DNA of 62,991 nucleotides, filler included, from 11 parts of 11 records of this genome joined end to end with filler, not necessarily neighbours in it, one strand, 5' to 3'; positions 978 to 57,783 are shown, counted from the whole stretch's first letter. Notes: generated from the letters alone by a model not told the origin. Numbers and translations are program-made.

Positions 978-3257
978 TTAGTGCGAAAACTGGCGAGTGT
1001 CACTGCTGCTCCTCTTTCCATAGGGGTTCGTAGCAGAAAACGCGTGGCCTGAGGACTCAGCGACCTTTCCCTACAGATAGCCTCAGTACCCAAGCAGAAC
1101 GGTGTTTGTGCACCTGCCAGCCAGGTTGCTTGTTCTTCTTGGACCGCTTCTTGTCTCCACGCATACTCGCTGAGAAGTTGAGCTGGACTCTGGGTGGCAC
1201 TTGCAGTCCGACTGCCTTGGCTACGAGCTGCCAGCCACAACTCAGGTCCGTCTGCAGCTGGTCGCAATCACCTGAAGGTCTAGAGTGTTGACGTTGAACA
1301 CATCCTTAAGTGAATGCGAGGCATAGGCTTGCAGGTAAGAGCGGTAAGCGTCCCTGGCCGACATGTTGAGGTGATAGTTCTTGTCGACTAGCTTCTCTAA
1401 CTGCGCCTGCCCAACCACTGAAACCCTCGAAATCGAGGTGCGGCCTACCTGCACGTTGCTCAGTTTCTTGATTGGCAGCTCGTATTCATTCAGCGGCACT
1501 TTAGCTTGCTTGAGATACTTCAAGAAACGCAGCTCCTCCGGCAGCAGCACAATTAGCGCCCGGCCCTTGCCTGCCGCTCTAGTCAGCCCTGCTGGCTGGA
1601 GAATGGTGCCTTTATCGCCACGAGCCGTCCGCCCCACCCTATGGATATACTCGCGAGGGTCATCCGGCGGGTCGTATTGAATAATCCAGTCCACGGCTGG
1701 GATGTCAAGCCCACGCGCGGCCACGTCCGTGCAGAGCAGAATGCCCTGAACTTTGGTGAGCCGCCGCGGTCGACAGGGGCTCACCTGGGATGCAGAGCAG
1801 TACTCGAAAAATGTCTGGGTGCGTTTTGTCTGCTTCTGGTTGCCGTGGAGGTCCTTGCACGGGATGTCGATATAGTTGAGTAACTCCGCGTGGAACTTGA
1901 CCGAATTGCACGACGAGAAAAACACAATTACCTGACACAATTGCGCTCGACGGACCGACCGGGACTCCGTCGAACCTTCTTTTTCATGTTCTTCTTGAGA
2001 AATGTGAATAAGAGCAGGAACCGCTTGTCCGCGGGGCACACCACATAACCCTGCGCCGACGTTCGCCCGGAGCCGATGGGGCGTGCCACCTGCTGCAGTC
2101 CTGCCACGGTCGCACTCACCTTTGAGTCATCTACTCCCACGTATCTGCCCGAACTCAGCCCGACCCGAGCAGCCAGCGCACAGCGGGTCTTTGAGACTCA
2201 TCCGAGCCAGGTCCTCCGTCTTGCGAGTCTGCGTGGCTGAGAATAGCATGGCCTGCCACCCAGTCACGACCCGGTCCAGCTCGGTCGATGCCTGTCTCTC
2301 AGTGGGTAGCAGCCTCAGGATTTGGTGCATGTCTTCTTCGAACCCGATCTCAAGGATCCGGTCGGCCTCGTCGATCACCAGGCACTGCAGGTTCTTGTAC
2401 ACAAACCCGCGCGTGTTCTGCAGGTGGTCGAGCAGTCGTCCAGGCGTGCTCACCAAGATGTTAATCCCCTTCTGCAGCTTGTCAGCCTCCACCTGCCCGC
2501 GCTCGGCCCCGCACCCACCCCCGCATCCACCTTGCGCGTCACCCCGCCCATTACGAGCCCGTGGGTCAGCGTGTGGTACTTGCACAGCTCACGGAGCACT
2601 CCGTATATCTACCCCCTCGCTCGGCTGTGTCGCCCACAGCCCGGTGACACCTGGAGCGCGAGCTCACGGGTGGGCGAGATCACCACCACGCCGGTGCCGT
2701 TCCGCGGCTTGAACTCGACTGACGACAGCAGCTCCACCGCTGTCGAGACTGCCGTCACTCCGGAGCCTGGCGCGGGGCGCACCGGGCACGAGGAAAGCCA
2801 GGGTCTTGCCGGATCCGGTCTGGGCGGCGCCTAGCAGGTCGCGCCCGCCCATCAGCGGTGTGATCGACTCGGCCTGGATGTGGGTGAGGTACTCGAACCC
2901 CATGTCCTTGAGCGCCATCTGGGTCCGCTCGCTGAGCTGCAGCTGGTCGAACCGCATCTCACTGCAGATCCCGGGCTTGCACGGCTCGGCAGGGGCCTCC
3001 GACGCCGCCTCTGCCGGTGCAGCCGACGCGGCGGCCGGCTGCTCGGCTTTCGATTTCTTCTTTTTGGGCCGGGCGGCAGCGGTGGGCGCGCTGGGCTCTT
3101 CGGCCGCCTCAGGCGCAGTCTCAGGCTGTTGCTTCTTCTTCTTCACGCGCTTGCGCTTGCGCTGGGCTGGGCTGGCAGCGGCGTGCGGGTCCTCCTGCGC
3201 GCCCACCGTCAGCCCGCCTCGCGCCCTGCAGGGCCGCACTGCTGTTTCGTCCGGCAT
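978..3257 (-). CDS. DDX18: DEAD-box RNA helicase DDX18/Has1, multi-exon
   Basis: Spliced model gives [53 protein letters not shown] and Has1-type [13 protein letters not shown] and [11 protein letters not shown]; about a dozen short introns, two GC-AG; TAA at 978-980. Confidence 0.93.
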
Positions 3258-3305
3258 ACTCCGTGTAGTGGGTCTGGTCGCGCGTGTGGCGGGAACGAGC
3301 CGTTG

Positions 3306-5414
3306 ATGGCGTCCAAGGCTGCTGCGCAGTTGGATGGGCTACTCGAGGCGGCCCGGGTGGCGCGCAAGCGGATCACCGAGCTGGAGACCGAGCTCGCGCG
3401 GTACAAGACGATGGAGGCGCCCCCAGGGCCGGGCTGGCGCCGAACGGCGGGGCAGGGCCAGATCGTGATGCAGGAGCGCAAGTTGAGCCAGATGCAGCAG
3501 GCCTTCGACAGGGAGCAGCAGCGGCGGCAGCAGCAGCTCGACGATGCCCAGCAGCAGCGGGACGAGGTAGGCGCACCCGCCGCTCCGCCGGCCGACCGGG
3601 CGTGGCAGGCGGTGAGCCGGGCGGGGATGCTCGAGAAGCAGTTGGCTGAGCTTCGGGATCGGATGGCCGAGCAACGGTCCCGGGGGGACGCAGGGGAGCT
3701 GGCCCAGGCGGAGGTAACGGCGCTCAAGCAGCAGCTGCGCCAGCAGGCTGACCAAGCAGTTCAGCTGGAAGCGGATGTGGAGGCGCTCCGGCAGCAGCTG
3801 CGGCAGCACGCCGAGAAGGCGGTGGCGGCCGAGCGGCAGATCGAGCAGCTCAAACGGCAGCTGGCCGATTCGGAGCGCCGGGCCGAGCAGGCCGAGCAGA
3901 GCTGCCGGGCCGCCCAGGGACAGATGAGTCACTCAGCGTCGGCGGCTGAACAACGGGCTGAGCAGCTGGATCGGGAGCTGGCGCGGGAGCGGGAGGGGCA
4001 CCAGGCGACCCGGGGGCGGCTGGAGGGGCTGGACCGGGAGCTGGCGGAGCTGCGGGCCAAGTTGGAGAAGGAGCGCAAGATGAAGCTTGACTGGGTGGTC
4101 GCAGCGCAAGGGTCAGAGCAGCAGCTGCAGCAGCGGGTGAAGCAGCTAGAAGCGCAGCTGGCCGCCGGGAGCCAGGGTAGCGACGAGCTGGCCCGTGCGC
4201 GGGATGAGCTGGCCGAGTGTGATGAGGAGCTCCGGGTGTGCCGGGCGCAGCTCGAGGGCATGCAGGGCCAGGCTGCTGCAGGGAGCTCGGAGGCAGCAGA
4301 TAGGGTCGCGGCAATACAGCAACTGAAGCATCAGCTGGCGATGGCCAACAAGCGGTTAGCCGAGCTGGAAGAGCAGCGGGAGGCCGATCAGGCCGCGCTG
4401 GCCAGCTTGGAGCAAGAGAGGGCTGTTGCTCAGCAGCAGCTGGAGCGGACCAAGCAGGAGCTGCAACAGAGTTCGTCGGTTTCGTCAGAGCTGGCTAGGC
4501 TGCGGACTGAAAGGGACGGGTTGAAGCGGGAGGTGGACCGGCTGACGGCTCAGAGAGACCGAGTGCAGCAAGCGCTGGACGAGAGCCAGGGCGAGCGGCG
4601 GAAGCTGCAGGAGGCAAATGCTGGCGTTGCGAGCAGCAGTGCGGATGAGAAGTTGAGACTCAACGCTGAGCTGGCCGAGGCGAGCGCCGAGCGGGATCGG
4701 CTGGGGATGGAGCTGGCGCTGTGCGGGGAAGAGAGGGACAGGCTGGCGCAGGCAGTCAGCAGGCTCGAGGCCGAGGTGGAGACGCTGACTAGCAGGCTGA
4801 GTGAGAGCAAAAGGGCGCAGCTGGAGGCCGAGGCTAGCAGGGAGCGTGCCGAGAAGGCGCTGACGCTGGACCGAGCGGAGCGGTCGAAGCTAGTTGAGGC
4901 GAGCGGCCGGGCAGCCGGGATGGAGGGGCGTATGATGTCTATCGAGGCCGATCTGGCAAGCACTCGGAGGGAGCGGGATGAGCTGAGGCGACGGTCGGAT
5001 GCAGAGCGGGCAGAATTGGAGAAAAAGCTGCGCGAGCTGCAGAGGAGTGCCACCCAGACCGCGGCGGACAAGGTCAAGCTCGAGCGGAGGGTGAGGGAGC
5101 TGCAGGAGGAGGACGAGTCGAGCATGCTCGCGCTGGCCGGGCGTGGCCGGGAGCTGGACGAGCTGCAGGAACGGTTGAATCGTCTGGAGCTGGAGAAGGC
5201 GGAGGGCGAGGCGAGGGTTTCGGCCGAGCAGGTGCCTGGTTGGGCGGGCGCGGGTGAGCGGTCGCAGGCGCGAGTGGAGGCTGAGTTGCTCAAGACGGTG
5301 GATGAGCTGCAGGAGGAGTTGGACGGGTATCGGAAGGAGGAACGGGACGTGGCCGAGGCGGCCAAGCGGGCCCGGCTGGACGAGCGGGAGGCCTGGATCA
5401 GTAGTCTCCGGTAA
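3306..5414 (+). CDS. Long coiled-coil protein; the last GTAAGC may be a donor, so the gene may run off the contig
   Basis: ATG 3306 ([14 protein letters not shown]); E/Q/R/L/A heptad-rich; in-frame introns at 3417-3455 (GC-AG) and two GT-AG. Confidence 0.7.
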
Positions 5415-5609
5415 GCATCAGGTATCAGTTCAAGGTATAGCTTCAGCTGCAGATCTGGGGTGTCTGCAGTTTATAGTGAATACAAATTATACAGTCTCTA
5501 TTTTACTCGATCGCCTTGCCGGGAGAAGTACATGTAAATTTATTAAACTGAGACATCCAGCCAACTCAGCTTAATTCACCGATCTAATAGCCCACTATAA
5601 GGCATCTTC

Positions 5610-5709
5610 NNNNNNNNNNNNNNNNNNNNNNNNNNNNNNNNNNNNNNNNNNNNTTAATTAATTAANNNNNNNNNNNNNNNNNNNNNNNNNNNNNNNNNNN
5701 NNNNNNNNN
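5610..5709. other. Artificial contig linker; same linker at 10211-10310, 17000-17099, 22013-22112, 27595-27694, 31210-31309, 35302-35401, 42192-42291, 49583-49682, 59413-59512
   Basis: Identical 100-nt N-run/TTAATTAATTAA/N-run blocks with stops in all six frames. Confidence 0.97.
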
Positions 5710-6630
5710 CCCCCCCCCTGGACAACGGCCGATTGAGCGCTGGGCCGGCAGGGTCCGCCAGCTCAAGACCGCCTCCGGGATCGTGGTCCGGTCGGCCAAG
5801 GCAGGCACCAAGCTCCCCCCGGGCAGCCAGCCCAAGATATACCTGCCACCCAGCCGACCGGCTCCTGCCAGCATCGCCGGCGCGTCGCAGCAACCCGCCA
5901 GCCTGGCCCGGCTCGGGTTCCTGCCTCCGCCCAAGAACGGCCCGGTTGCCAGCGTCAACCCGCCGGCCGCCCTGCCTCGGCCCAAGCGAAAGCAGCCCAC
6001 CCAGCCGGTGGAGGATGATGACGATGATGACGACGCGGGCGACGGCCTGTTCGGCGCGGGCCTGGTCGGACGGCCACGCTCCCCGGAGGAGCCGGCGGCG
6101 GTGGAGCCGGCGGCGCGGCCCGATGAGGAGATCGAGGGCCCGATGATGGGCCCGGCCCGACCCCCGGCGGAGGGGCCGGCGGTGCAGCAGCCGGTGGTGC
6201 AGCCGGAGTGGGCGCTGCCGCAGTTTGACTACTTGCATGACCAGAATGCCAACAGCAAGAAGCGACGGAGTGAGCAGCTGCCAGATTTGTCGCAGATGGT
6301 TGAGATAAACGCCGCCCAGGCAGGGCCCGCCCGGCGGGGCCCGGGTAGATCGGGCGGCAGGTGTCGTCGACGGACCACTGGACCGAGGAGTACAAGCAGG
6401 AGCTGGCAGCCATGCACGCGAACAAGGCGCAGGCGAAGGTTGAAGTTCCGATTTTCAATAAGGCCGGCGGAGAGATGAAAATGTGCTCCGCCGAATCGCG
6501 GCAGGCCAAACGGAAGCACCAGATCCATACGCTGGCACTGCAGGCCAAGCAGCGTGAGGCTGAGTTGAATGTGCGCGGGATGCAACATAAAAAGACCAAG
6601 GCGCAGACGTACGGTCGATACGGCTGGTGA
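5710..6630 (+). CDS. PRCC: PRCC-like proline-rich protein (5' partial)
   Basis: Pro-rich N-part, then KRKHQIHTLALQAKQREAEL...KAQTYGRYGW, which resembles the PRCC C-terminal domain; GC-AG intron 6320-6360 joins the frames. Confidence 0.75.
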
Positions 6631-6846: not shown

Positions 6847-7249
6847 TCAGGCGCCGTACTTCTTGAACTGATCGTGGATCGTCTCAACGTACTTCTTCTT
6901 GGCGTCGTCCTGAGACATGCCTGCGGCCCGCTCGCCCGGCCAGTCGGCCCCGTGTGGGCGCCTTTGTGCTTATTCCAGGCGTCCCACTTGGACTTACCCT
7001 CGAAGCTGAACATGCCCGGCCGCTCGATGTTGACGTCCCCAACCGTGGCCTGCTTGTAAAACCCGTAAGCTGTCAGTTTCTCCTCGTTGCTCGCCTGCCC
7101 CGCCGTCGCCCCCGCAGCGCCGGGGGGCGCGCGTTCTTGCCCGTGTCCCAGGTTTTGACGAAATCGGCGCACGACTCGAAGCTCTCGCCTGCCGCCCGGC
7201 CGCCCCTCAGCCCCCAGCGCCCGAGCCTTTCGCTGCCTGGCTCGCTCAT
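6847..7249 (-). CDS. ACBP: Acyl-CoA-binding protein
   Basis: Spliced: [18 protein letters not shown]...[55 protein letters not shown]; introns 7189-7236, 7095-7132, 6921-6961. Confidence 0.9.
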
Positions 7250-10133: not shown

Positions 10134-10310
10134 GGCCCAGCTGCGAACATCGTCAACGGCCGGCTTTGAGCTTGACAGCGCGACGCCGCATGCACCGGAG
10201 CGAAGGTACGNNNNNNNNNNNNNNNNNNNNNNNNNNNNNNNNNNNNNNNNNNNNTTAATTAATTAANNNNNNNNNNNNNNNNNNNNNNNNNNNNNNNNNN
10301 NNNNNNNNNN

Positions 10311-15545: not shown

Positions 15546-16974
15546 ATGGCGTCGCAGCCACGAAAGCGGCAGAGGGAGGCGACCGGGCAGCCGGGGGACG
15601 GAGCGAAGCTGCGCACGCCGAAAGCGTTCGTGGAGCACCCGCAGGACCTGTTCCGCGCTCTGTTCCATGACGAGAATCGGCAGAAGAACGCGCTGGGCAA
15701 GGCGGGGCTGCTCTTCAGCGGGTCGGCGCTTGGTGAAAAGTACGTCGCGTACGAGCGTCTGGTGTGGAACGAGATGAAGCTGCACAAGCGGTTCAGCCTG
15801 AGTCCGGAGATGCTCAAGAAGACGATTCCGAAGCTGTCCGAGCTGGACGAGGCTACCTACGCCCAGCTGTGGAAGCAGTACAAGCGGCACTGCGACTTCG
15901 AGAACCTGGCCCGGGTGCAGAGTGCCCCGCTGATCGATGCGATCGACGGGCTGATGAAGCGGCTGGACCACGCGCAGGCGGGCTGGCGGTCCGGCGGTCG
16001 GGCGAGCGGTGGGGACAGAACAAGAACCTGGAGCTCGGTGCTGCGATGGAGCGGGCGAGCAAGCAGGACCAGGTGGCCGATTTAATGGCTGTTCTGCGAG
16101 CCGTTGCAGAGCAACACGGCCAAGAACAAGCAGGAGCTGGCTGCGCTCGCCAACTCGCACCGGATAGAGGTATGCGCTCGGCCAGTGCTGAGCGCTGAGG
16201 AGAGCGCTCAGGTGGCCGAGCTGACGCTGCAGCTAGAGCAGAGCCGGGCGGCCCAGAGCGACGTGGCGGGCCGTCAGTGGGCTGGCCGAGCTGGTGGGCC
16301 AGGCGGAGGAGGAGAAGCTGCAGCTGCGCACGCGAGTCGGGCAGCTAGGAGACGAGTTGTCGTCCAAGCAGACTGAGCTGCAAAAGGCCTACCAGGTCGG
16401 CCGACCAGCCGTGCTGTTGAGTGAGCCGGGCGGATAGGAGCAACAGGCGCTGCAGGCGACACTGGACGCGCAGAAGGAGAACCTGCGCAGTCAGCTGGAA
16501 TCGGAGCAGGAGCAGGCGTCGAGCCTGAGGAGTGAGGTGGCCGAGGGTCAAGCCAAGATTCGGCTCAAAGTGGAGAACGCCAACGCCATCTACGAAGAGA
16601 ATCTGCTGCTCGAAAAGCAGCTGCGCGCTCGGATGGAGAAGATGAACGAGCTTCGGGAGGAGAATATCCTGCTCAAGGTAGCGATCTCGCAAGCCCTGGC
16701 TTGAGTGTGTCTCAGGCACAGTTTAAAGCAGCCGCCATGGAGCAAATCGCTGACGAGCCGCGCGGCGAGATGCCGTTCAATAGCAAGCGGAGTCTGCAGT
16801 GGAGGTGGTGCGGCTGCGGGCTGGCGGCTGAGTGCAGGCAGGGCCGAGCCGTCTCAAGTGCCAAGACAGATCGTCAAGCAGGAACCGAGCCAAGCTCCGG
16901 CAAGGCCGCCTGTGGCCCCGGATTCGGCAAAGTTCAATGCGTTTCAGAAGCTGATGAACTTGATCAAGGATTGA
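15546..16974 (+). CDS. Hypothetical protein: globular N-terminus plus coiled coil
   Basis: Spliced frames continue via GC-AG intron 15978-16018 and several GT-AG introns; NLS-like PRKRQR at N-terminus. Confidence 0.6.
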
Positions 16975-17136
16975 CAGGGTTGCCCCACAGATCATTACGN
17001 NNNNNNNNNNNNNNNNNNNNNNNNNNNNNNNNNNNNNNNNNNNTTAATTAATTAANNNNNNNNNNNNNNNNNNNNNNNNNNNNNNNNNNNNNNNNNNNNC
17101 ATACAAGACATAAATACTTGAAAAATCCTTGCTCTC

Positions 17137-20100: not shown

Positions 20101-22012
20101 CACAGTCCGCCAGGATCTCTACGGCCTTCATCGCCTTAGTCCGCAACTGGCTTTCGACCAAGCTACAGGCGGCAGCAATCAGCTTGTCTGCTGTCTCTCC
20201 CGTGACTGCTAGCGCTGTTCTTGATACAAGACTAGGGTCCCGCCGCTGTGCGATCATCCCGATTCCCGTGACCCACTGGCGCACAGTCAACCGGGAGTTA
20301 CGCTGCCGGCCGGACGCTTGAATGAAAACAAGGTCCAAATGTTCTCGCCTAAAGTGCTCGTTATACAGGTCGCAGTCCACGCAGAGCTTGTGCAGCCCGG
20401 CCGAGGTCATCCGGTCGCAAGGGACCGGCTCCCCGAAGCTGCAATAGTACTCAAATATCAGCGACATCTCGCCCTCTCTCTCCGGCTCTTGTGAGATGAA
20501 TTCAGCAAGCCTTCCAATCACGCCCTCCGTGGCAGCCACGAGCCCAGCAGCCACCTGGCACAGGGCTCAGCGCTCAGCGGGCCTAGAGCAGAGAGACCCG
20601 CTGCTTCTCCTCCTGGATTGGAGTTATCTTGTGCTTCATCGTGAAGTCGACTTTATGCTGGTTCCCAGTTCGAGTCAGGCTGCAACATTACTCTCTCTCA
20701 GTGCACTCAGCAAGCCAGCGGCGCACATCAGGTCGGCAAGCACTGGCGAGGCGTCAATATACAGCAGTAAGTGCTCTAGCCTGTCGTGTGCCGTTGGGAG
20801 CCCGTGGACTGCCTCTTTAAACGCCTCAATTGCCACCTAGTTTATAGGCTGAGGCTATATTAGTCGCCTTTGTCCACCTTCTCCACCCACTGGAGGAACT
20901 CCTCGAAGCTGAGCCCGTGGTCGCGGTCATACTCCTGGCTCGGCTTGATGGCCCGCGCCACTCGCATCACCTGGCCTCCGGGCTCAATTGCGCTAACACC
21001 CACGACTCACCTCTCTGTTCGACATTAAACTTGCTTTATTCGAATGCGTCGCAGAGCCCGTGATCCCAAATTGCTCCGTAAACTGCATCAGCTCCCTAAG
21101 CCTGCCGTAAGCCTCTCCCGGCCGGCCCGCGATGCCTGATAGAGATGTTGTTCAGTCCCGTTGCACGCTCCTTCCAACGATCAGCTTTCTCGGCCTCCCG
21201 CTGCTTCTCGACCTCTCTGCTCTCCGCGGCGGTCATCCCTTCCTGCCACATGCTAATCTCCTTCTCCTCCGGCTCGATCTCCTGGAGAGAATAATAATCG
21301 AAAATAAACCGGAGTGGCTCTTGCATTTCGTTGAGGAGTACGGTCGTCTCCTCGGGCGTGGCGGCCGACTCGAATTCCATAACCATCAGCGACTCGGCGA
21401 ACGGAACAAACGTCTGCTCGAAAAAATTCTCTACGGCCTGCTGCCAGTCCGCCTCGGGATGCTTGGCGATGGCAATCTCGGCAAGGGTCTCCTTGAACAT
21501 GCTCACATCCAGCTCCTGCTTTATGATGGCGCACCGGTGGTCCCCGGGCTTCAAATGGGTACAGCGCTGCACGATCAGATCCAGCTTGGCCGTGGTCAGC
21601 CGGTTAGCATCCAGCAGCCCGCATTCCCTCACAAACCGCAGCAACCGGCGGGACGACAGCCCCTCGTTCGGGACCGCAGTCTCCCCAAACTGCCTGTACC
21701 GCTCCCACACCCGGCGCACTGCGTCGTCGTGCACCTCCAGCACTGGGAAGTCCTCCACCCGAATTTGCGGCTTGCCCGACGGCTTGGCACCTACCACACC
21801 GTTTTTCCAGGCGGTACCGCTCTTGGAACCCTCCCAGCGCCGACCCCACCCAGGGTCGTACAGCCTTCGACGGGAGGGCGGGGCGGCCTGGCTGGCCCAG
21901 TCTGGTGTACCGTCAGGGTTGCGCGGCGGATCGGCGTGCCCCGGGAAGGAGTAGCCGCGATCGGCCAGCCAGCCATCCCGCACCACTGGCTGGATGGGAT
22001 TCGCTGTAAGGC
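17137..22012 (-). CDS. Large protein with multiple p25alpha (TPPP)-like / EF-hand-like modules (5' end near contig edge)
   Basis: Repeated modules, e.g. IFEYYCSFG...MTSAGLHKLCVDCDLY...LDLVF...LTVRQW and IFQYYCGHG...LNKVYKDCAVYD...MDIIF...LDYNQFLVALLKTACRKYP. Confidence 0.65.
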
Positions 22013-22112
22013 NNNNNNNNNNNNNNNNNNNNNNNNNNNNNNNNNNNNNNNNNNNNTTAATTAATTAANNNNNNNNNNNNNNNNNNNNNNNNNNNNNNNN
22101 NNNNNNNNNNNN

Positions 22113-27542: not shown

Positions 27543-27694
27543 CGCTTTTTTCTGGAAAAGGTTCAACGACGACTATTATTATTTCACTAGTGGCNNNNNN
27601 NNNNNNNNNNNNNNNNNNNNNNNNNNNNNNNNNNNNNNTTAATTAATTAANNNNNNNNNNNNNNNNNNNNNNNNNNNNNNNNNNNNNNNNNNNN

Positions 27695-31209: not shown

Positions 31210-31624
31210 NNNNNNNNNNNNNNNNNNNNNNNNNNNNNNNNNNNNNNNNNNNNTTAATTAATTAANNNNNNNNNNNNNNNNNNNNNNNNNNNNNNNNNNN
31301 NNNNNNNNNAAGGGCCAGACGTTCGTCCAACCGGGAAAGTACCGGGAACGGGCGGAAGCTTTTGTGTGGATGCGTCTAGGCAGACACAGGCGGAAGGGGA
31401 TGAGGCGCAGCGGGGCCGCCTCTGTCACTGGCCGTCTCCCACAAGCCCAACCGGGCGGGCCCGGCAGCCTGTCCGCCGACGGGTTGAGGTGGATGGGCGA
31501 GGCGGCCGCCGCTCAGGTGAGAGGTCAAGGCTTACGCAGGTACGACCAGCCGGCCAACACGGCGAGCGGGCCCGGGCTCGTGAGAGTGGTGCCCTCTACC
31601 ACCCAGCGGGGAACGGGAGGGCCG

Positions 31625-35301: not shown

Positions 35302-35401
35302 NNNNNNNNNNNNNNNNNNNNNNNNNNNNNNNNNNNNNNNNNNNNTTAATTAATTAANNNNNNNNNNNNNNNNNNNNNNNNNNNNNNNNNNNNNNNNNNN
35401 N

Positions 35402-35753: not shown

Positions 35754-38700
35754 ATGCCGGTGCTGTATGACGGGGAGACCCGTATGTTCCGGCTATACAC
35801 CAGCAACGTGCTGTACGCCTTCCGGATCGACCCCAAGGCCGCCCCCGCCCGCCGGCCGCCGGCTCACCCCCGGGGCAGGGCCTGCTCGAGCACCTGTACT
35901 GGGGCCGCAAGCTCCCGATCAGCGACGACCTGCGCTACACCCTGGCCTGTGCGCCGCCCCCCCCGCGGGGGCTGACCCCGGGCCAGCCAACCCGTCGCTC
36001 ACCTTCGACCCCAGGGACGCCCAGGGCACCTCAACGGTTGGACTAGATGTGATGCTCGGGGCGGCTCGGTCGTCCAGCGAGGAAGCCGAGCGGAGCATCA
36101 CCGCCGCCTGGCGCGAGGCCACCACCAACAAGGCGCCCCCGGCCGGCTGACCGGCTGAGCGGCCCGCAGGACACCTCCACAATCGCCGGGATCGCGGCTC
36201 GCCGGAGGGAGAACCTTAGTTGGCGGCAGCTGAGCAAGATCGCAAAGAAGCAGCAGGGCGGGCTGCTCACGCTGGACGATCTAGACCCGGCGGTGCTGGC
36301 CAAGTGCCGGCTGGACCCAGGCCCGGAGCCGCGGATGCGCCGGGACAGCTCGCTGCTCGACCTCGCCTGTGAGCCTAGGTTCCCGGTGAGCCGGCCGCAG
36401 TCAGTGGACAACCTAGCTGGGCTGGCTGAGGGCATGCCGGTGCCGCGGACCGAGTCGCTGGGCAACCTGTCCGACTTTGATCTGGGCGTGACTGAAGCCG
36501 CCTGGGGGCACACCGGCCACTCTCTCTCAAAAGTGCTCCATCCCTGGAGCTTCGCTTACACAGGCGACCACCCCGCCCCGCGCGCCCCGTCGCCAGGTGG
36601 CCCGCCCTCGGCCGGTGTTGCAGTCCATCCGGGGCGCAGAAACACCGTTAGGGACCGAGGGCTCGGCTGTTTCTCTCCATTCAGACCTTTCTGACCTGCA
36701 TGAGGAGCCCAGCACAGAGTTTGTCACCGGCTCCAAAAACGCCCAGCTGCTCGAGTTTGGAGACTTTGGCACAGGTCGGGAGACAATCAGGCCGGTCCGA
36801 GCCGGCGCCAGGTGATTACAGGACCCCGTCGATGATTGTTCAGTACCCGGACGGTTCGACGATCTCTAAAATGGAGTACAAGGTCGTGCCCCAATGGGCC
36901 CTTAAACCCGCTGCCAGAGCCACACAATCCACGCCGGAAAGCTGGACATCGAGCCAGCGCTCCCGGGCTTTTGTGGCGAATCCGACGAGGAGGCAAGCGG
37001 CCCTGGAGGGCGCTGGCTGAGGTGGAGCAGGCTAGCACGCTGGTGGTAACGCTTGTAGACCAGCTCACGATGCTCGAACTAGACTTGATCTTCTTCGCTT
37101 TCGACTGGCTCGATGTGCTGATCAGACAGGCGCGCCCGCTACCCTCGGAGGGGCGCTGAGTGGCTGCACAGGTGCGGGTGCGTAACTGTGGGTCTGGCCC
37201 GGTGGCAATTAAAAAGCTCCAGTCATGTTCGATGGACTTTGACGCCAACACGTAACGAGTTCGATGCGCCCACGGGTGAGCGGGCAGCAGGTACTATCTG
37301 ACGCATCTGTCGGGTGCCTGGGCGAGGGAGCGAAATGTGACGAGTCAGCGGCTGTTGGACGGGAATGTGTGCATCGGCTCGCTTAGGGGCACCTCCTCTC
37401 ACCAGCACAATCCGTTCGCCATGATCTCGGTTAGCTGCTAGCTCAACAGCCGATTAAAGCCCGGTCTCAGGTGGGGGCGCCTGATGAGGACAAGGCCAGC
37501 TGCTACGGGTTCAGCCTGGTCTATTCGGGCAATTGGCAGGCCGAGTCGCAAGTCACTGAGACAGGCCGTTTGAGGTTTGGCATGGGGATTAACCCGACGG
37601 CCTTCTCTTGGACGCTGGAGCCGGGCCAGCAGTTCAGCACTCCGGAGTGCCTGATGGTGTTCTCGGACGCTGGGCAGGGTGAGCGCTGCCCGGGCACCGC
37701 ATGCCGGATAAGGGGTTGTTGGCAGGGTTGCTCAGTCGGAGGATGCACAGAGCGGTGAGGGATCGGCTTTGCCCAAAGCACTGGCGGACTGCGCCGCGAC
37801 CGGTGCTCGTTAACAGTTGGGAGGCGTTTTACTTTGACGTGAACCATAACAAGATGCTCGAGTTGGCCAGGGCGGCCAAGCTCGCCGGGATAGACTTGGT
37901 CGTGCTCGACGACGGCTGGTTTGATGGCCGGAATAGCGCCAACACTTCGCTCGGAGACTGGACTCACGACACCGGCAAGTTCCCGCGCGGAATAGGCGTT
38001 CTGGCCGAGATGGTTGTGGCGGAAGGCATGCAGTTCGGACTCTGGGTCGAGCCGGAGATGGTGACCGCTGCTTCAATTTGTGGATTTGAATTCGGGCAGG
38101 TTTCGGTCGAATCCAAGCTGTACAGCGCTCACTCGGATTGGTGCTTGCATCACCCAGGGAGGACAAGGACTGAGGGCCGGAACCAGCTCGTGCTAGACTT
38201 GTCGCGGCAGGAGGTCTGCGATTATGTGTATGATAGCCTGGACGCGCTGCTTAAAGGTCAGATCTGTCCTTGAACCAGATAGCGCCCATGCCTCAATGAT
38301 GCTTTACTTTAGATTTCTGTTCACTGAGACCTTCTGTGAGGAATCCTTATAAAAGTTCCTGAGAGATGATACCAATAGACCTGATGTTGCTGCCTGTGAG
38401 AGGCGGGATGACGGCTGTGCTGGCAGATGGCTTCATCACGTACATTAAGTGGGACATGAATAGACATCTGACTGAAGTCTTCTCCAACCCACTCCCCGCT
38501 CAAGCCCAATGCGGCGTGCCTCACAGGTGGCCGACCCGCCCGTGCCGCACTCACCGCCACGCAGGTTTGTGCTCGGGGTTTATCAGATACTCTCGAGAAT
38601 AACCAATAAATACCCGCATGTGCTCTTGGAGACATGTTCGGGTGGCGGAGGTCGTTTTGACCTCGGAATGCTCCGCTTCTCTCCCCAGATTTGGACTTCA

Positions 38701-39811: not shown

Positions 39812-40420
39812 TCAAAGCTCGGTCTCCATCGCTAGCTTAATCTGCTCGAACGTGGCTCTATACACCTGCCCGCCCATCCGCCGCCAGCGCCACACCAGAG
39901 GCCACCTCGATCTCGTGCCCGAGGGGATCGTCGATATCTTCCCCAGCCCGCAGCAGCCTGCCCCCCACCTCTACCCCCTCCAGGGCGGCCGCACCGGATC
40001 TTCCCATCCGGCAGCCCTGGGCACAGCTCTTTCACCCCCGCCACATGCCCCGCCGTCATGCAGATCACCTGCACCCGCCCTACGCCCCCGCCAGCCCTCC
40101 CACCCACCGCCTCGGCCTCCGCGGCCATGGCCGGGGTCAGCATCTTAGCCGTCCCATCCCAGCCGGGCAGGCCAGCCTCTGCGAGCACCTGCAGCCATCC
40201 GTCGAGCTGCCGGCCCGGCCACAGACCTGTACAGCGCACGGATTGGGAGGTCGGCCCTCCACCGCCGCCACACCGGCCGAGCGGGCGCTCCTGCCCTGGC
40301 CGACAGCCCAGCCCTCGGCCATCTGAGCCATACCGCTCGTGCCCCGGGCCGGTAGCAGGGCGGTGCCTGCGAGCGGCAGGTGTTGCCAGTGCACACAAAG
40401 AGCAGCGGACCACCGGGCAT
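39812..40420 (-). CDS. Low-molecular-weight protein phosphatase (LMW-PTP fold, YwlE-type P-loop)
   Basis: Spliced: LLFVCTGNTCRSQ/MAEG...ARSAGVAA...VICMTAGH...DIDDPLGHEIE/VYRATFEQIK; five introns, the first GC-AG (40323-40366). Confidence 0.85.
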
Positions 40421-42191: not shown

Positions 42192-42291
42192 NNNNNNNNN
42201 NNNNNNNNNNNNNNNNNNNNNNNNNNNNNNNNNNNTTAATTAATTAANNNNNNNNNNNNNNNNNNNNNNNNNNNNNNNNNNNNNNNNNNNN

Positions 42292-42741
42292 GCAGCAGCG
42301 GCCAGCGAAACCACTGTCAGCGACGGAGTGTGGATCACCACTGTCAGCGAGGGCCCACCGAGCTCCCCGCGGCCGCATTCCGGGGCGGCGATCAAAGCGC
42401 ACTATGTTGGATACCTGCCGGGAGGCGGCGTGTTTGATTCGTCCAGGGAGCGAGACGAGCCGCTCGAGTTCACTCTGGGGCACGGCGAGGCAGCCATCAG
42501 CCCGGGCGCTCCATCAATCTGACGGTCAGGTGATCGAGTGCTGGGAGTTGGGGCTGATGGAGATGAGGATGGGCGAGCGAGCCACCTGTGCCCCGGTCGG
42601 CCGCGCAGAGACTGAGTGGTGGGGACAGTGAGGTGCTCTCCTGAGGTGGCATATGGTTCGCACGGGGCCGGCGGAGTGGTCCCGCCCAACGCCGAGCTGA
42701 CCTTCGATATCGAGCTCCTCCGGGTCTACAACGTAGCATAG
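42292..42741 (+). CDS. FKBP-type peptidyl-prolyl isomerase (5' partial)
   Basis: [56 protein letters not shown]...[18 protein letters not shown] intron 42490-42529. Confidence 0.92.
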
Positions 42742-42754
42742 TCCTGACTTAGTC

Positions 42755-42910: not shown

Positions 42911-42933
42911 TCTCAGTCAACTCGGCACGGGAA

Positions 42934-44968: not shown

Positions 44969-44991
44969 CGCGCTGAGAGCCGTTGAGAAAG

Positions 44992-45830
44992 ATGGCCAGG
45001 CAGGTGCTTTCCCCAACACAGTGGCTGACCGGTGCGGGTCAGCGTGAAGAAGCCGGGCGGGGCTGATCTCGAGCTGCTCTTCAAAGGCAGGCGTGCTCTC
45101 CCAAGCGGTGGCTGACCGGTGCGGACCAGAAATCGACCTGGACGGCAGCGGCGAAATCTCGTTCAAGGAGCTTACCGGCTTCCTCAAGGGCGCTGCCATC
45201 CCGCACGAGGCTGAGGCACCGGGCACCCCCAGCCCGCCGGCCAGCCGGGGCGGCAGATGCTCAAACGGTTGATGCAGAAGTGCGACGCTGGTGAGCTACG
45301 CCCGCGGCCGGCTGGCGAGGCTGGTGGGGAAGATGGGAGCGCCTCTCTCAACTTCAAGGAATTTAGAATGGCCGGCCCTCTGCTGATGGACATGAAGATG
45401 GTGGCCATGATGCAGGCGCAGGCCAAGAACCCGCCGGCCGACGTGCAGCCGCCCGGTGGGCGGGCATGAGCCTGCCGGCAGGGGCTGCCGCAGAGCACCG
45501 ACGAGATGAAGGCGCTCTTTGACCGGATAGATGCCGACGGGTCCGGCTCACTGGACTTCGAGGAGATAAGGGGGTGACACACAGCACGGTGGGCGGGGGC
45601 GAGTGGTGGCAGGTATCTAAAAGGGGCCGGGCACGAGTTTGATAAAACTTTCCTGGAGGAAATGATTAAGAATGCGGATACAGGTCATCAGCAACTGGTG
45701 ATGCTCTTACTGGTGGCAGATGGGGATGGCACATTAGATTTCGAAGAGTTCCGGATGGTGTGACCAGCCGCGCCTTTGGCCACAGCGGGTGCAGGTGCTG
45801 TGGATGATGGAAGCTAAGCTGGGTAAGTGA
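44992..45830 (+). CDS. Calmodulin-like protein with four EF hands
   Basis: Loops DLDGSGEISFKE, DADGSASLNFKE, DADGSGSLDFEE, DTDGDGTLDFEE after removing eight short introns (three GC-AG). Confidence 0.88.
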
Positions 45831-49582: not shown

Positions 49583-49864
49583 NNNNNNNNNNNNNNNNNN
49601 NNNNNNNNNNNNNNNNNNNNNNNNNNTTAATTAATTAANNNNNNNNNNNNNNNNNNNNNNNNNNNNNNNNNNNNNNNNNNNNAAGAATGCATTCTCAAAA
49701 CTTAGTCGCTACGAGTACTTCAATCCAAGAATTTATCTGACAAAAATGATGCGATGTGGCGGCTCATATGTAGCATTATTGTGTATCTCAAAAAGAGAAC
49801 GTGAGTATTGAATCAGAGTATCGATCAGTCGAGCCACCTCGAGCAATGCTATGCTTGGTAGAAT

Positions 49865-52405
<2,541 letters not shown>

Positions 52406-55483: not shown

Positions 55484-55784
55484 CGCGCCCGGGGACCCGC
55501 GCTGGCCGATACCCTTCTGCAGGTTCTTCTCCTACGCCCGCAGCTCATGCCCGGCCCGACTGTGGAGAGGCCACCCGACACCACTGATTGTGCGTGAGCT
55601 TCTTCGGAGGCGAGCCGCAGCTGAGTTTATTCATATATGCCCGATACCCTTCTGCAGCTTTCCCCGGCGAGTTTTCATTCCATTTCTTGCGGTGTACCGG
55701 CTCCGGCGGCTGCCCCGGCCAGTCAGCCGGGCCCTGGCCGGCCGGGCGCCTCGCTCATCGCGCGCGCCACGCCCTCCTGGATCA

Positions 55785-56400
55785 TCATCGCTGCCGGCTC
55801 TGGCTGAGGCGGGAAATCGACCTGCGCAGCCGCTCGCAGCTGCAGCCGGGCTGGGCTGCCTTGAAGTCGAACCGGCCAGTCACGCAGTCCTCCCCAGTCG
55901 AGTCGGTGAACACACCGCAGTAGCTACTCAGCGCGTCGGCCTGAGTGAGCTGACCGTCGAACCTGCCCGCAGCTCGCCCCGCGGCCTGCGGCACGGACCC
56001 ACCGGACCAGCTTGCCGCCGTGGTCCTCTATCAGGAAGAACTCGCCGTACTCGTCTATATGCCCCTCGTAACTCAGTTTTCCCGGCTGCAGCCGCCCGGG
56101 CTCGCCCCGCCAGCAGTCCGCCGGCCGCACCGGCACCCCCGCCCGGCTGCCGTTCCCCCGCCCAGTGACCCGCCCGTCGGCGCGGCACTTGAGTTTGATC
56201 CCTGGCCCAGCCGGCTCGGCTGCCGGGCCAGCAGCAGGCCAGCGCACCGCCAGAGGACAGAGGGAGCGGGATCACGTCGCCCCGGCTGGTCTTGAGCGTG
56301 CCGTGTATGGTGCAGCAGCCCGTGGGCCGGTCGATAGTCGAACGCCGGTGCGCTGTGGGCACCGGATCAGCTCCCCGCCAGCCTGGGCCAGCCTACCCAT
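55785..56400 (-). CDS. Hypothetical small beta-rich protein
   Basis: Open frame after removing four short introns: MAHRRSTIDRPTGCCTIHGTLK...LSYEGHIDEYGEFFLIED...RFDGQL...YCGVFTD. Confidence 0.5.
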
Positions 56401-56482
56401 CGTGGCTGCTCCTGGCGCTGCTGTGTCCTGTGGTGGTGCTGTGCCTGTGCCGCAACGGCTGCAAAATCTACGAAGTACAAAC

Positions 56483-57783
56483 ATGGTGTTCTCGCTGTCC
56501 TCCGTGGAATCGGAGCTGCACACCAGCTTCACCAGCCTGCGGCGGCTGGGCCGGACCGCGATCGTCAACTTCGAGGCCTTCCTCCGGGCTGACGGCCAGC
56601 CGGACACCCCGCTCCCCGTGGACCCACTCTCAGGCAAAATCGGCTGCGGGGTGTTCTCGCGCAACTCTGGCGGCAAGCCGTGCGAGGTGTTAGTCCGGCG
56701 GCGGGGATGGACCGAGTTCGAGACCGACAAGGCCGCACTCGGGATGACAGTGCGCGGGGCGCCCTACGCCGGCTCACCGGGGGCGGGCAGGTGGCAGTGG
56801 TGCATGGATCGAGCACCGCGCTGACCGACCAGGCGGCCGAACTTGGGTGGAAGCAGCACGGCCGGGACCTGTTCTGCCCGCAGGACGTGGCTGGGTCAGA
56901 CTCGGACGTCCGGATCCTGGTGCCCCGCGCCCGAGTTTTGGGCCCGAGTTGGTGTCAGGCCGGCGCGATGGCGGCACTGCAGCGCGGCGAGGCCGATCAC
57001 CGGATCCAGCTGGCCGGGCTCAAGCACTCGGTGGGGGCGCTCGAGAAGCGGTGCGCTCAGGCCGAGGCCCGCGCTGAGGCACTGGCCGATGAGCTGGCCC
57101 GGTGAGGACTGGCCGGCTGGCGGGGGCGAGGGTCGGGCAGGCATCGGGCTGCGACCGATGAGTCGACAGCTAGGGCCGAGAAGAGCAGGGTGCGGAGCGG
57201 GCTGTGCAGCAGGGGAAGTGGGGGCAGGCGGACTGGGCGGTGGTCGAGGGCGACGTGGGCGAGATGCGGGGCAGTCTGATCGAGTTGCACACAGAGCTCG
57301 ACAGCGTGAAAACAGCAGTGGAGAGTAGCCGTGATCAGGCCGCCGGACAGGCGAGCTGCCGGCCAACCCAGAAGCGAGCGGTGGTGTAGGTGACTGGGGT
57401 GGAGACGGCCGTGGCGGGGCTGGCAGTGAAGCTGGAGGAGTGCGACGCCAAGATAGATTGGTTGCAGCGCGAACAGGAGCGAATAGTGCCAGTGTCGGAG
57501 GCGGCTAGGGAAGACGTTAGGGAACAGTGCTGGAAGAGCGCCTCTGACCGGGCCACGATGGAGCACCAGAAGTGAGCGGCCGGCTGAGCGATGAGTCTGA
57601 CTGGCTTGCAGGGCAGAGCAGCTGAGACTGAGCCAGCTGCTGGAGGATGTGGAGGCGAGGCATCAGGCAGAGCTTAAGGCAGCGAGTTGAGGCCGGCAGG
57701 GCGTGACGGCCCGGCGGCAGGCGCTTCGGGCAGAGATGCGGTGCGGGCTTGAGCGGATGGATGCCAAGATACAGATGAAATAA
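56483..57783 (+). CDS. Hypothetical protein with C-terminal coiled coil
   Basis: ATG 56483; frames linked by short introns including GC-AG 57679-57720; TAA 57781-57783. Confidence 0.55.

What the first reader, a model, noticed from the sequence alone, without database searches (positions are those of the whole stretch)
1571..57720. Unusually frequent GC-AG mini-introns with degenerate donors
Seen: I place 19 GC-AG introns of 37-48 nt: 1571-1609, 2253-2291, 3417-3455, 6320-6360, 6921-6961, 7095-7132, 7189-7236, 15978-16018, 21096-21135, 35838-35878, 36133-36169, 36993-37030, 37130-37171, 40323-40366, 42490-42529, 45000-45042, 45087-45129, 45216-45256, 57679-57720. Many are needed to restore the frame in conserved proteins (ACBP, FKBP, GH36, phosphatase, EF-hand). 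All but one follow exonic AG, and positions +3 to +6 vary freely (GCATCG, GCACCA, GCGCCC, GCCGCC, GCGGGC). Known: GC donors are usually about 1% of introns and stay close to GCAAGT; raised rates are reported in a few lineages such as Emiliania and dinoflagellates. Inference: donor choice here may rest on the exonic AG plus a fixed distance to the branch point, implying an altered U1/U5/U6 system.
Basis: partly seen in the sequence, partly recalled or inferred. Interest (0 to 1): 0.8.

Follow-up and report, generated by a model that had tools for sequence, protein, structure and literature searches.

The report
Frequent GC-AG mini-introns in a telonemid
These contigs come from a relative of the protist Telonema whose genes are packed with roughly 42-base introns, and about one in five of the checkable ones starts with GC instead of the usual GT, a rate seen so far in only a few GC-rich protists.

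Summary
The core observation holds. All 19 segments read GC...AG on their coding strand. Eleven are backed by colinearity with homologs or with an internal protein repeat: 1571, 2253, 6921, 7095, 21096, 35838, 36993, 37130, 42490, 45087 and 45216. Four are plausible only (3417, 6320, 15978, 36133). Four are ambiguous or unsupported (7189, 40323, 45000, 57679).

In the seven genes I could check, 46 introns are GT-AG and 11 are GC-AG (19%). GT and GC introns lie side by side in the same genes. They share length (35-49 nt) and CAG|G acceptors. A T-x-A branch motif is present in most, but in fewer of the GC introns.

The window is 11 contigs joined by linkers. RPB2 places at least its contig among telonemids.

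The degenerate +3 to +6 donor positions are not special to GC introns, because GT donors here are just as loose. GC introns are internally GC-richer (0.785 against 0.674). This fits T-to-C drift at +2 being tolerated by a permissive 5' splice-site system.

No RNA data, whole genome or snRNA genes were available, so the proposed change in U1/U5/U6 is untested. Similar GC-AG rates (14-17%) are reported for pelagophytes. I therefore file this as a new member of a known kind, in a lineage for which my searches found no description of nuclear introns.

The parts
1571..1609 (-). GC-AG intron, 39 nt, in frame and without a stop, in the HAS1/DDX18 helicase gene: verified
   Evidence: It is exactly the 13-residue insert relative to solved HAS1 chains. 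The alignment restricted to GT or GC donors picks it with 4 of 4 homologs. The only GT alternative lies 12 nt upstream and would delete 4 conserved residues.
2253..2291 (-). GC-AG intron, 39 nt, in frame, in HAS1/DDX18 just before the SAT motif region: verified
   Evidence: It is an exact 13-residue insert relative to DDX18 chains. The unbiased alignment with L036 has GC-AG among its exact ties. No frame-keeping GT...AG exists within 18 nt.
3417..3455 (+). Candidate GC-AG intron, 39 nt, in frame and without a stop, in a coiled-coil protein gene: plausible only
   Evidence: The de novo model predicts it and its intron-signal score is 9.3. No homolog was available. Translated read-through is not excluded.
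6320..6360 (+). Candidate GC-AG intron, 41 nt, in the PRCC-like gene: plausible
   Evidence: It shifts the frame and joins a 203-codon open frame to the ORF holding PRCC profile positions 120-189. It is in the de novo model and has no GT alternative. The upstream exon has no detectable homology.
6921..6961 (-). GC-AG intron, 41 nt, in the ACBP gene: verified
   Evidence: The unbiased alignment gives GC-AG among its exact ties with 3 of 7 homologs and a 41-nt intron within 12 nt with 3 more. Removing it is needed for a complete ACBP reading frame.
7095..7132 (-). GC-AG intron, 38 nt, in ACBP: verified as a removal, and GC-AG is the only canonical-like boundary
   Evidence: Four of 7 homologs place a 38-nt intron 2 nt away, which is a one-residue ambiguity (N or K). 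There is no GT within 18 nt. It follows exonic AC rather than AG.
7189..7236 (-). Candidate GC-AG intron, 48 nt, in frame and without a stop, near the ACBP start: undecided
   Evidence: Its signal score is 8.4 with a CTGAG branch motif. Homologs do not resolve the N-terminus, and the de novo model does not include it.
15978..16018 (+). Candidate GC-AG intron, 41 nt, in a coiled-coil gene without a Pfam family: plausible
   Evidence: It shifts the frame, is in the de novo model and has no GT alternative. Its signal score is weak at 3.4.
21096..21135 (-). GC-AG intron, 40 nt, in a large p25-alpha-domain gene: verified
   Evidence: The unbiased alignment with the full-length relative P0318 places a 40-nt intron whose exact ties include GC-AG at these coordinates. 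Eleven other introns of the same gene are GT-AG.
35838..35878 (+). GC-AG intron, 41 nt, in the GH36 alpha-galactosidase gene: verified
   Evidence: Five of 5 homologs place a 38-44-nt intron here. The GT-or-GC alignment picks exactly these coordinates in 2 of 2 homologs run. There is no GT alternative.
36133..36169 (+). Candidate GC-AG intron, 37 nt, in the N-terminal extension of GH36: the site is real, the boundary is unresolved
   Evidence: The unspliced frame hits a stop, so a removal with length of 1 modulo 3 is needed. The 61-nt GT-AG alternative at 36072-36132 scores about the same against two homologs (128 vs 132; 171 vs 153). Length and signal score (9.3) favour the GC version.
36993..37030 (+). 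GC-AG intron, 38 nt, in GH36; the only donor close to the usual form (GCAAGC): verified at site level
   Evidence: Five of 5 homologs need an intron with length of 2 modulo 3 that ends at 37008-37030. The GT-or-GC alignment picks 36993-37030 or 36993-37027. There is no GT alternative within 18 nt.
37130..37171 (+). GC-AG intron, 42 nt, with an in-frame stop, in GH36: verified
   Evidence: Read-through stops after 9 codons. The GT-or-GC alignment picks it in 2 of 2 homologs. The GT alternative 15 nt upstream scores 1.9 against 11.4.
40323..40366 (-). Claimed GC-AG intron, 44 nt: unsupported
   Evidence: The minus-strand ORFs here have no Pfam family and it is not in the de novo model. Its signal score is 4.6 without a T-x-A branch motif. 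It lies just upstream of the plus-strand actin-like gene.
42490..42529 (+). GC-AG intron, 40 nt, in the FKBP gene: verified
   Evidence: Homology to FKBP1A chains ends at residue 66 of the ORF, which is base 42489. Exon 1 covers FKBP_C profile positions 3-43, exon 3 covers 65-94, and the 19-codon exon 2 fills the gap. Read-through stops after 10 codons. There is no GT alternative.
45000..45042 (+). Claimed GC-AG intron, 43 nt, after the second codon of the EF-hand gene: ambiguous
   Evidence: A GT-AG alternative (donor +4, acceptor +7, 46 nt, score 5.4 against 6.4) also keeps the frame open. It is a near-duplicate of intron 45087-45129.
45087..45129 (+). GC-AG intron, 43 nt, in the EF-hand gene: supported
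   Evidence: With GC-AG, the N-half of the protein aligns to the C-half without a gap over 60 residues (score 143). The GT donor 6 nt downstream forces a 2-residue gap (score 132). The EF-hand_1 profile starts at its position 8-9 right at the acceptor.
45216..45256 (+). GC-AG intron, 41 nt, in the EF-hand gene: supported
   Evidence: It shifts the frame and is needed for the gapless internal-repeat alignment. No frame-keeping GT...AG exists within 18 nt. It has no clear branch motif.
57679..57720 (+). Claimed GC-AG intron, 42 nt: ambiguous
   Evidence: The de novo model prefers an overlapping GC candidate at 57655-57699. A weak GT alternative exists. No homolog was available.

Best explanation
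These are ordinary (U2-type) spliceosomal introns of a telonemid nuclear genome, and a sizeable minority carry C instead of T at intron position +2.

Introns in this organism are ultra-short (35-49 nt, median 41), GC-rich and dense. The 5' splice site carries little information beyond (A)G|G-Y. Most of the recognisable signal lies in a C-T-R-A-Y branch motif about 13-14 nt upstream of a CAG|G acceptor, and in the narrow length range.

Inferred mechanism: each intron is recognised as one unit, with weak dependence on snRNA pairing at +2 to +6. A T-to-C change at +2 therefore costs little. GC-biased mutation or gene conversion in this 59% GC genome pushes donors from GT to GC. The result is roughly 10-20% GC-AG.

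Shown: the introns exist, their boundaries are best read as GC-AG, they sit among GT-AG introns in the same genes, and they are GC-richer.

Inferred: that they are spliced by the major spliceosome, and that relaxed donor recognition plus GC pressure is the cause.
For: Identity. The RPB2 exon is 93% identical to metatranscriptome proteins and 88% identical to a cluster that holds Telonema subtile. The next hits are about 65%.

Aligner validation. My dinucleotide-blind spliced aligner finds 9 RPB2 introns, 8 with GT-AG among the exact ties and 1 resolved by eye as GT-AG. For RPB2 the GT-only score (5593) equals the unbiased score (5594).

GC introns. Eleven of the 19 claimed are supported. Allowing GC as a second donor gives the largest gain of 15 dinucleotides tested in GH36 (+83.6) and in ACBP (+68.6). 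It also gives the largest gain in the de novo model (+111 against +50 for the next best).

Boundaries. Fourteen of 19 have no frame-keeping GT...AG within 18 nt. The decoy test gave 0 of 33.

Same class as GT introns. A signal model trained on GT introns only, leaving out +1 and +2, scores the 19 at 3.3-11.4. The GT training set scores 3.4-13.1. Lengths and branch distances are alike. GT and GC introns co-occur in HAS1 (10 GT, 2 GC), GH36 (11, 3), the p25-alpha gene (11, 1), the EF-hand gene (4, 2) and FKBP (1, 1).

GC pressure. Intron GC content is 0.785 against 0.674 in the verified sets (9 against 33, p=0.028), and 0.786 against 0.681 in the larger sets (19 against 84, p=0.00035).

Precedent. 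GC-AG makes up 14-17% of introns in GC-rich pelagophytes; I read that passage of bioRxiv 10.1101/2024.10.30.620910.
Against: - There is no RNA evidence of any kind, because no run was listed.
- At about 50% identity, homologs fix the site and the frame but not the exact dinucleotide. Control dinucleotides recover much of the gain (CG +69.4 and CC +68.8 in GH36; AA +61.6 in ACBP).
- The de novo model also 'finds' 7-21 introns for most control dinucleotides. At least one of its GC calls (1228-1265) is false, since homologs show GT-AG at 1228-1271.
- Motif-only counts show no GC excess.
- A T-x-A branch motif is found in only 12 of 19 claimed and 6 of 9 verified GC introns, against 21 of 25 GT introns.
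- The 19% comes from genes that mostly contain reader-claimed GC introns, so it is biased upward.
- The flanking GC difference is weak (p=0.07 and p=0.19).
- The window is a set of 11 contigs, and only the RPB2 contig is placed taxonomically.
Confidence: 0.8

Rival explanations
1. One reading: the snRNA machinery itself is altered, for example a changed U1 5' end or U6 ACAGAGA box. Donor choice would then rest on the exonic AG plus a measured distance to the branch point, and GC donors would be a by-product of a re-wired 5' splice-site code.
For: Both GT and GC donors lack the usual +3 to +6 consensus. Exonic AG is seen in 8 of 9 verified GC donors against 18 of 33 GT donors. Intron length is tightly bounded at 35-49 nt for 42 verified short introns.
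Against: - No snRNA gene is in the window, so nothing bears on it directly.
- The donor-to-branch distance varies as much as the branch-to-acceptor distance (sd 4.1 against 3.4 nt).
- The excess of exonic AG is not significant (p=0.12).
- Longer introns of 170 and 71 nt with GT-AG exist in GH36 and the p25-alpha gene, so length is not a strict ruler.
- Weak donors in short-intron genomes do not by themselves require changed snRNAs. This last point rests on established knowledge and was not tested here.
Confidence: 0.15
2. The boundaries are mis-assigned. The segments are introns, but they use nearby GT donors or other non-canonical dinucleotides, so the GC-AG share is inflated.
For: Five of 19 have a frame-keeping GT...AG option within 18 nt. 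The one at 45000 is as good as the GC version. Site 36133 has a 61-nt GT alternative. Control dinucleotides recover much of the alignment gain.
Against: - Fourteen of 19 have no GT option.
- Exact-tie sets at 2253, 6921 and 21096 contain GC-AG as the only canonical-like pair.
- AG|GC...AG is absent around 33 decoy GT introns (0 of 33) but present at 8 of 9 verified sites.
- The GT options at 1571, 37130 and 45087 fit homologs or the internal repeat worse.
Confidence: 0.1
3. Some segments are not introns at all but translated in-frame insertions. This applies only to those of 3n length without a stop: 1571, 2253, 3417 and 7189.
For: These four keep the frame open, so the sequence alone does not force their removal.
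Against: - 1571 and 2253 interrupt the most conserved helicase core exactly as two GT-AG segments of the same gene do (1746-1784 and 1407-1448, also 3n without stops).
- They carry CTGAC and GTGAC branch motifs and CAG|G acceptors.
- None of the solved HAS1/DDX18 chains shown (2 per query) or the four full-length relatives has such inserts.
Confidence: 0.05
4. It is an artefact: either consensus errors (T read as C at +2), or a mixed bin in which the GC-AG contigs belong to another organism.
For: The window is a chain of 11 short contigs with linkers. The contigs range from 55% to 68% GC, and only one contig is placed taxonomically.
Against: - GC-AG and GT-AG introns alternate within single genes on single contigs.
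- Eleven independent errors, each exactly at +2 of an intron, are not credible.
- Intron length and acceptor signals are the same across contigs.
Confidence: 0.03

Closest known systems
Elevated GC-AG intron share in GC-rich pelagophyte algae (Aureococcus anophagefferens about 14-17%, Pelagomonas calceolata about 14%)
   Same: This is a double-digit percentage of predicted GC-AG donors in a GC-rich protist genome, which the authors attribute to GC content (passage read, bioRxiv 10.1101/2024.10.30.620910). Here the share is 11 of 57 checked introns, and the GC introns are the GC-richer ones.
   Different: Pelagophyte introns average 103-177 bp and are sparse, below 1 per gene (same passage). 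Here they are about 42 nt and dense, with 9-15 per gene in RPB2, HAS1, GH36 and the p25-alpha gene. The lineage also differs (Telonemia rather than stramenopiles).
Ordinary GC-AG introns of animals, plants and fungi (about 1% of introns)
   Same: They have the same terminal dinucleotides and, presumably, the same major spliceosome. The tendency toward a stronger exonic AG|G context is seen here only as a trend (8/9 against 18/33).
   Different: Non-canonical sites make up about 1.2-2.1% of introns, with GC-AG the commonest (passage read in PMC7789003 citing Frey and Pucker). From recall, those donors stay near GCAAGT. Here only 1 of 19 resembles that (GCAAGC at 36993), and +3 to +6 follow intron composition.
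Ultra-short-intron genomes such as Paramecium (about 25 nt)
   Same: The introns are tiny, lie in a narrow length range, have little room for signals and are probably recognised as a whole. The abstract of PMC5014332 was seen in the listing; the rest is recalled.
   Different: Those genomes are AT-rich and, as far as I recall, not known for GC donors. Here introns are 67-79% GC and about 42 nt long.
Non-canonical introns and introner elements of Amoebophrya and other dinoflagellate relatives
   Same: A large fraction of the introns lack GT (more than 60% in Amoebophrya; passages read, PMC7789003). Two EF-hand introns here are near-copies of each other.
   Different: Amoebophrya shows no dominant dinucleotide pair and has terminal inverted or direct repeats. 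Here the non-GT class is consistently GC-AG. No repeat family was found beyond that one local pair (2 matches in the window).

Membership tests
U2-type GC-AG spliceosomal intron | GC at +1/+2 and AG at the 3' end on the coding strand | tested here: met
   19 of 19.
U2-type GC-AG spliceosomal intron | Removal restores frame and colinearity with homologous proteins | tested here: met
   Met for 11 of 19. Four are plausible only, and 4 are ambiguous or unsupported.
U2-type GC-AG spliceosomal intron | Absent from the mature mRNA | not testable with these tools
   No RNA holder was listed. The closest transcript-derived relatives are other species.
U2-type GC-AG spliceosomal intron | Branch-point motif (YTRAY-like) shortly upstream of the acceptor | tested here: inconclusive
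   A T-x-A motif 7-24 nt from the 3' end is found in 12 of 19 claimed and 6 of 9 verified GC introns, against 21 of 25 GT introns.
U2-type GC-AG spliceosomal intron | Compensating strong consensus at +3 to +6 (GCAAGT-like), as in animals and plants (feature recalled) | tested here: not met
   +3 is A in 12 and G in 6; +4 to +6 are C- or G-rich as in the rest of the intron. Only 36993 reads GCAAGC. This is a property of the usual examples, not a requirement of the class.
U12-type (minor) intron | Highly conserved donor (RTATCCTT) and TCCTTAAC-like branch site (motifs recalled) | tested here: not met
   None of the 19 donors printed has this form.
Introner / mobile intron family | Many near-identical intron copies across genes | tested here: not met
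   The shared 17-mer of introns 45000 and 45087 has only those 2 matches in the window at up to 3 mismatches. The rest of the genome is unavailable.
Telonemia (organism assignment) | Marker protein closest to named telonemid sequences | tested here: met
   The RPB2 exon is 88% identical to the cluster that holds EP00656 Telonema subtile proteins and 93% identical to unnamed metatranscriptome proteins. Other eukaryotes are at about 65% or less. Only the RPB2 contig was tested, and no tree was built.

The most novel reading that the evidence does not exclude
Telonemids may run a 5' splice-site code in which only the exonic (A)G and the intronic G at +1 are read. Positions +2 to +6 would be almost free, which implies a U1 5' end and U6 pairing that are changed or largely dispensable for about 42-nt introns. 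GC donors would then not be 'weak' sites but functionally equal to GT.
Probability: 0.2. Interest if true: 0.7.

Novelty: new member of a known kind. Interest (0 to 1): 0.45.

Why it matters
Telonemids are a deep, poorly sampled eukaryotic lineage. My five literature searches that touched on the lineage (and passages read) found no description of their nuclear introns.

If the pattern holds genome-wide, gene finders and read mappers that assume GT-AG will break roughly one gene in two in such assemblies. The dataset would also add an independent case linking GC pressure, tiny introns and relaxed donor recognition. That is useful for work on how the 5' splice site is read and how intron signals evolve.

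Tried and rejected
- RNA evidence: the look-up of sequencing runs listed no RNA holder.
- Whole genome: none is held, so no genome-wide donor census or snRNA search was possible.
- Rfam at gathering score and ARAGORN on the window gave 0 hits each.
- Motif-only counting of AG|XY...branch...YAG patterns failed, because the background hit rate is about 15% for every dinucleotide.
- Codon-score ranking of XY...AG candidates is swamped by neighbours of real introns.
- In the GT-trained signal model applied window-wide, GT shows an excess (55 candidates above score 8, where about 25 would be expected) but GC does not (50, equal to background).
- The GH36 homolog search returned no close relatives (best 53-55%), so exact boundaries there rest on the restricted alignment.
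- PDB search of the 33-residue FKBP exon 2 found nothing at E up to 1, and Pfam likewise.
- The metagenome scan for HAS1 gave no telonemid transcript. Its best locus, L001, is genomic DNA of another lineage (48% GC, about 92-nt intron).
- A phosphatase gene was looked for and not found in the Pfam scans of 248 ORFs and 8 exons.
- Exon translations of three unannotated genes were printed but were not sent to Pfam.
- I did not build a phylogeny, and I did not test the other 10 contigs for taxonomic origin.
Full report
**What the window is**

The 62,991 bases are not one locus. Ten identical linkers (44 N, TTAATTAATTAA, 44 N) join 11 contigs of 3.5-9.7 kb. Overall GC is 59%, and the contigs range from 55% to 68%.

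Pfam on 248 stop-to-stop ORFs shows eukaryotic genes split over many short ORFs in changing frames. They include:
- a DEAD-box helicase
- a PRCC-like protein
- ACBP
- an amidohydrolase
- RPB2
- a p25-alpha-domain protein
- a GH36 alpha-galactosidase
- an actin-like protein
- FKBP
- an EF-hand protein
- TFIIH p62

The largest RPB2 exon is 93% identical to proteins from about 3.6-kb metatranscriptome contigs. It is 88% identical to a cluster that contains Telonema subtile (EukProt EP00656). All other named eukaryotes are at about 65% or less. The RPB2 contig therefore comes from a telonemid. I did not place the other contigs, but they share the same intron style.

No whole genome is held. No RNA run was listed. 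The window holds no Rfam family at gathering score and no tRNA.

**Method**

I wrote a protein-to-genome spliced aligner that has no preference for any splice dinucleotide and reports all boundary shifts that give the identical mRNA ('exact ties').

On RPB2, with the 93% relative P0002, it finds 9 introns of 42-49 nt. Eight have GT-AG among the exact ties. The ninth resolves by eye to a 42-nt GT-AG. Restricting donors to GT changes the RPB2 score by 1 unit (5593 against 5594). The aligner is therefore specific, and RPB2 has 9 GT-AG introns and no GC-AG intron.

**The 19 claimed introns**

All 19 read GC...AG on the stated strand, are 37-48 nt long, and 18 follow exonic AG.

*HAS1/DDX18 helicase.* Solved-structure alignments show a 13-residue insert at exactly 2253-2291, and another at exactly 1571-1609. 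Two further in-frame inserts begin with GT, at 1746-1784 and 1407-1448. With four full-length relatives taken from metagenome loci, the conserved core has 12 introns, 10 GT-AG and these 2 GC-AG. With L036, the unbiased alignment has GC-AG among the exact ties at 2253-2291.

*ACBP.* A 41-nt and a 38-nt removal are needed. GC-AG is an exact tie at 6921-6961 with 3 of 7 homologs. At 7095-7132 there is no GT within 18 nt. The third ACBP candidate (7189-7236) stays in frame without a stop and cannot be decided.

*GH36.* Homologs are only about 50% identical. Even so, 5 of 5 need introns at 35838, 36993 and 37130. At 36133 a removal is needed, but a 61-nt GT-AG alternative fits the two informative homologs about as well.

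*FKBP.* Homology to FKBP1A chains ends at the very base before 42490. Exons 1 and 3 cover FKBP_C profile positions 3-43 and 65-94, and the 19-codon exon 2 lies between them.

*EF-hand protein.* With the GC-AG model, the N-half aligns to the C-half without a gap over 60 residues (score 143). Using the GT donor 6 nt inside intron 45087 forces a 2-residue gap (score 132). This supports 45087 and 45216. For 45000, a GT-AG alternative is as good as the GC version.

*p25-alpha gene.* The full-length relative P0318 gives a 40-nt intron whose exact ties include GC-AG at 21096-21135. It also gives 11 GT-AG introns.

*The rest.* Candidates 3417, 6320 and 15978 rest on frame logic and a de novo model only. 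Candidate 40323 has no support. At 57679 the de novo model prefers an overlapping candidate. No phosphatase domain was seen.

**Is it more than chance?**

Signals alone are too weak to tell. Loose patterns hit about 15% of all positions for every dinucleotide. A signal model trained on 25 GT introns shows a window-wide excess for GT but not for GC. The case rests on four other results.

1. *No GT option.* Fourteen of 19 have no frame-keeping GT...AG within 18 nt at either end.
2. *Homolog alignments.* Adding GC as a second donor gives the largest score gain of 15 dinucleotides tested in GH36 (+83.6; next best CG +69.4 and CC +68.8) and in ACBP (+68.6; next best AA +61.6). The margins are modest, because any nearby dinucleotide that restores the frame recovers most of the gain.
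3. *De novo model.* In a Viterbi model (codon log-odds plus the GT-trained intron signals), GC gives a gain of 111 against 50 for the next best. It predicts 25 GC and 84 GT introns. Control dinucleotides yield 1-21 introns, so the model's false-positive rate is high. One of its GC calls (1228-1265) is wrong.
4. *Decoy test.* Around 33 verified GT introns, a frame-keeping AG|GC...AG alternative within 6 nt occurs 0 times in 33. The verified non-GT sites have it 8 times in 9.

**How frequent?**

| Gene | GT-AG | GC-AG |
|---|---|---|
| RPB2 | 9 | 0 |
| HAS1 | 10 | 2 |
| GH36 | 11 | 3 |
| ACBP | 0 | 2 |
| FKBP | 1 | 1 |
| EF-hand | 4 | 2 |
| p25-alpha | 11 | 1 |
| Total | 46 | 11 |

The total is 11 of 57, or 19%. 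With the three unresolved sites in these genes it would be 14 of 60.

Six of the seven genes hold reader-claimed GC introns, so this figure is biased upward. Window-wide, 11 to 19 GC introns against about 84 predicted GT introns gives roughly 12-18%. A cautious statement is at least 10%.

**What the introns look like**

| Feature | GT set (n=25) | GC verified set (n=9) |
|---|---|---|
| Exonic AG | 12/25 | 8/9 |
| G at -1 | 19/25 | 8/9 |
| +3 | G 16/25 | A 5, G 3 |
| +4 | A 11, C 10 | C 5, G 2 |
| +5 | no preference | C 6, G 3 |
| +6 | C 15/25 | C 6, G 2 |
| CAG acceptor | 22/25 | 9/9 |
| Next exon base G | 16/25 | 8/9 |
| T-x-A branch motif | 21/25 | 6/9 |
| Branch A to acceptor | 14.2 nt, sd 3.4 | 13.1 nt, sd 3.8 |
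| Donor to branch A | 27.4 nt, sd 4.1 | 26.8 nt, sd 4.0 |

Only one of the 19 claimed donors (36993, GCAAGC) resembles the usual form.

With all verified GT introns, exonic AG is 18/33 against 8/9 (p=0.12). The verified short introns are 35-49 nt with a median of 41, and 14 of 42 have a length divisible by three, as chance predicts. Two longer GT-AG introns exist, of 170 and 71 nt.

GC introns are internally GC-richer: 0.785 against 0.674 (p=0.028) in the verified sets, and 0.786 against 0.681 (p=0.00035) for 19 against 84. The flanking difference is weak.

**Interpretation**

The simplest reading is that these are major-spliceosome introns in a genome whose 5' splice site carries very little information for any intron. 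A T-to-C change at +2 is then nearly neutral, and GC-biased drift fixes it often.

But the looseness is general, not peculiar to GC donors. The donor-to-branch spacing is not specially fixed. The idea of altered U1/U5/U6 cannot be examined without the genome.

**Comparison with what is known**

Non-canonical sites make up about 1.2-2.1% of introns in animals, fungi and plants, with GC-AG the commonest (passage in PMC7789003). Pelagophytes reach 14-17% GC-AG, which is attributed to GC content, with introns of 103-177 bp (passage in bioRxiv 10.1101/2024.10.30.620910).

Five searches touched on the lineage. One was on Telonema and introns, one on Telonemia and splicing, one on telonemids and introns, and one on a Telonema subtile genome assembly. 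I also read passages of the 2025 telonemid mitochondrial-genome paper. None gave a description of telonemid nuclear introns. Supplements were not consulted.

This is therefore a known kind of deviation in a new, deep lineage, combined with unusually small and dense introns.

**Limits**

- There is no RNA evidence.
- There is no genome-wide census.
- The exact dinucleotide is inferred at several sites from homologs of 43-55% identity.
- Only one contig is placed taxonomically.

Noticed in passing
window 5610-5709, 10211-10310, 17000-17099, 22013-22112, 27595-27694, 31210-31309, 35302-35401, 42192-42291, 49583-49682, 59413-59512: The window is 11 separate contigs joined by an artificial linker (44 N, TTAATTAATTAA, 44 N). 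Features must not be read across these joins.
   Followed up: yes
window 45000-45042 and 45087-45129: Two neighbouring introns of the EF-hand gene are near-copies of each other and share an identical 17-mer that includes the CTGAC branch motif. There are no further copies in the window. This suggests a local intron duplication, or an introner-like origin.
   Followed up: partly
window 44992-45762 (+): The EF-hand protein is an internal duplication. Its N-half and C-half align without a gap over 60 residues. Only one intron position (45291 and 45684) is shared between the halves.
   Followed up: partly
window 1407-2291 (-): In the HAS1 helicase, 6 of 12 introns have a length divisible by three. 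At least four (1407-1448, 1571-1609, 1746-1784, 2253-2291) also lack in-frame stops, so their retention would not break the frame. Over all verified introns the share of 3n lengths is as chance predicts (14 of 42).
   Followed up: partly
window 22115-27572 (-): This contig has a strong AT skew (about -0.33 to -0.37). Nearly all of it is filled by two long open frames (1139 and 689 residues) rich in A, E, K and Q, which looks like a coiled coil. The second begins with a hydrophobic, signal-like stretch. There is no Pfam family.
   Followed up: partly
window 38257-38426 (+) and 17711-17781 (-): Two GT-AG introns, of 170 and 71 nt, lie well outside the otherwise narrow 35-49 nt range.
   Followed up: no
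They are unverified. The model's false-positive rate is high, and its call at 1228-1265 is contradicted by homologs.
   Followed up: no
L001:236-343: In the closest HAS1 locus from the metagenome scan (another lineage, 48% GC), an intron of about 92 nt sits at the position of the window's 1932-1975 intron. It contains telomere-like CCCTAAA repeats.
   Followed up: no
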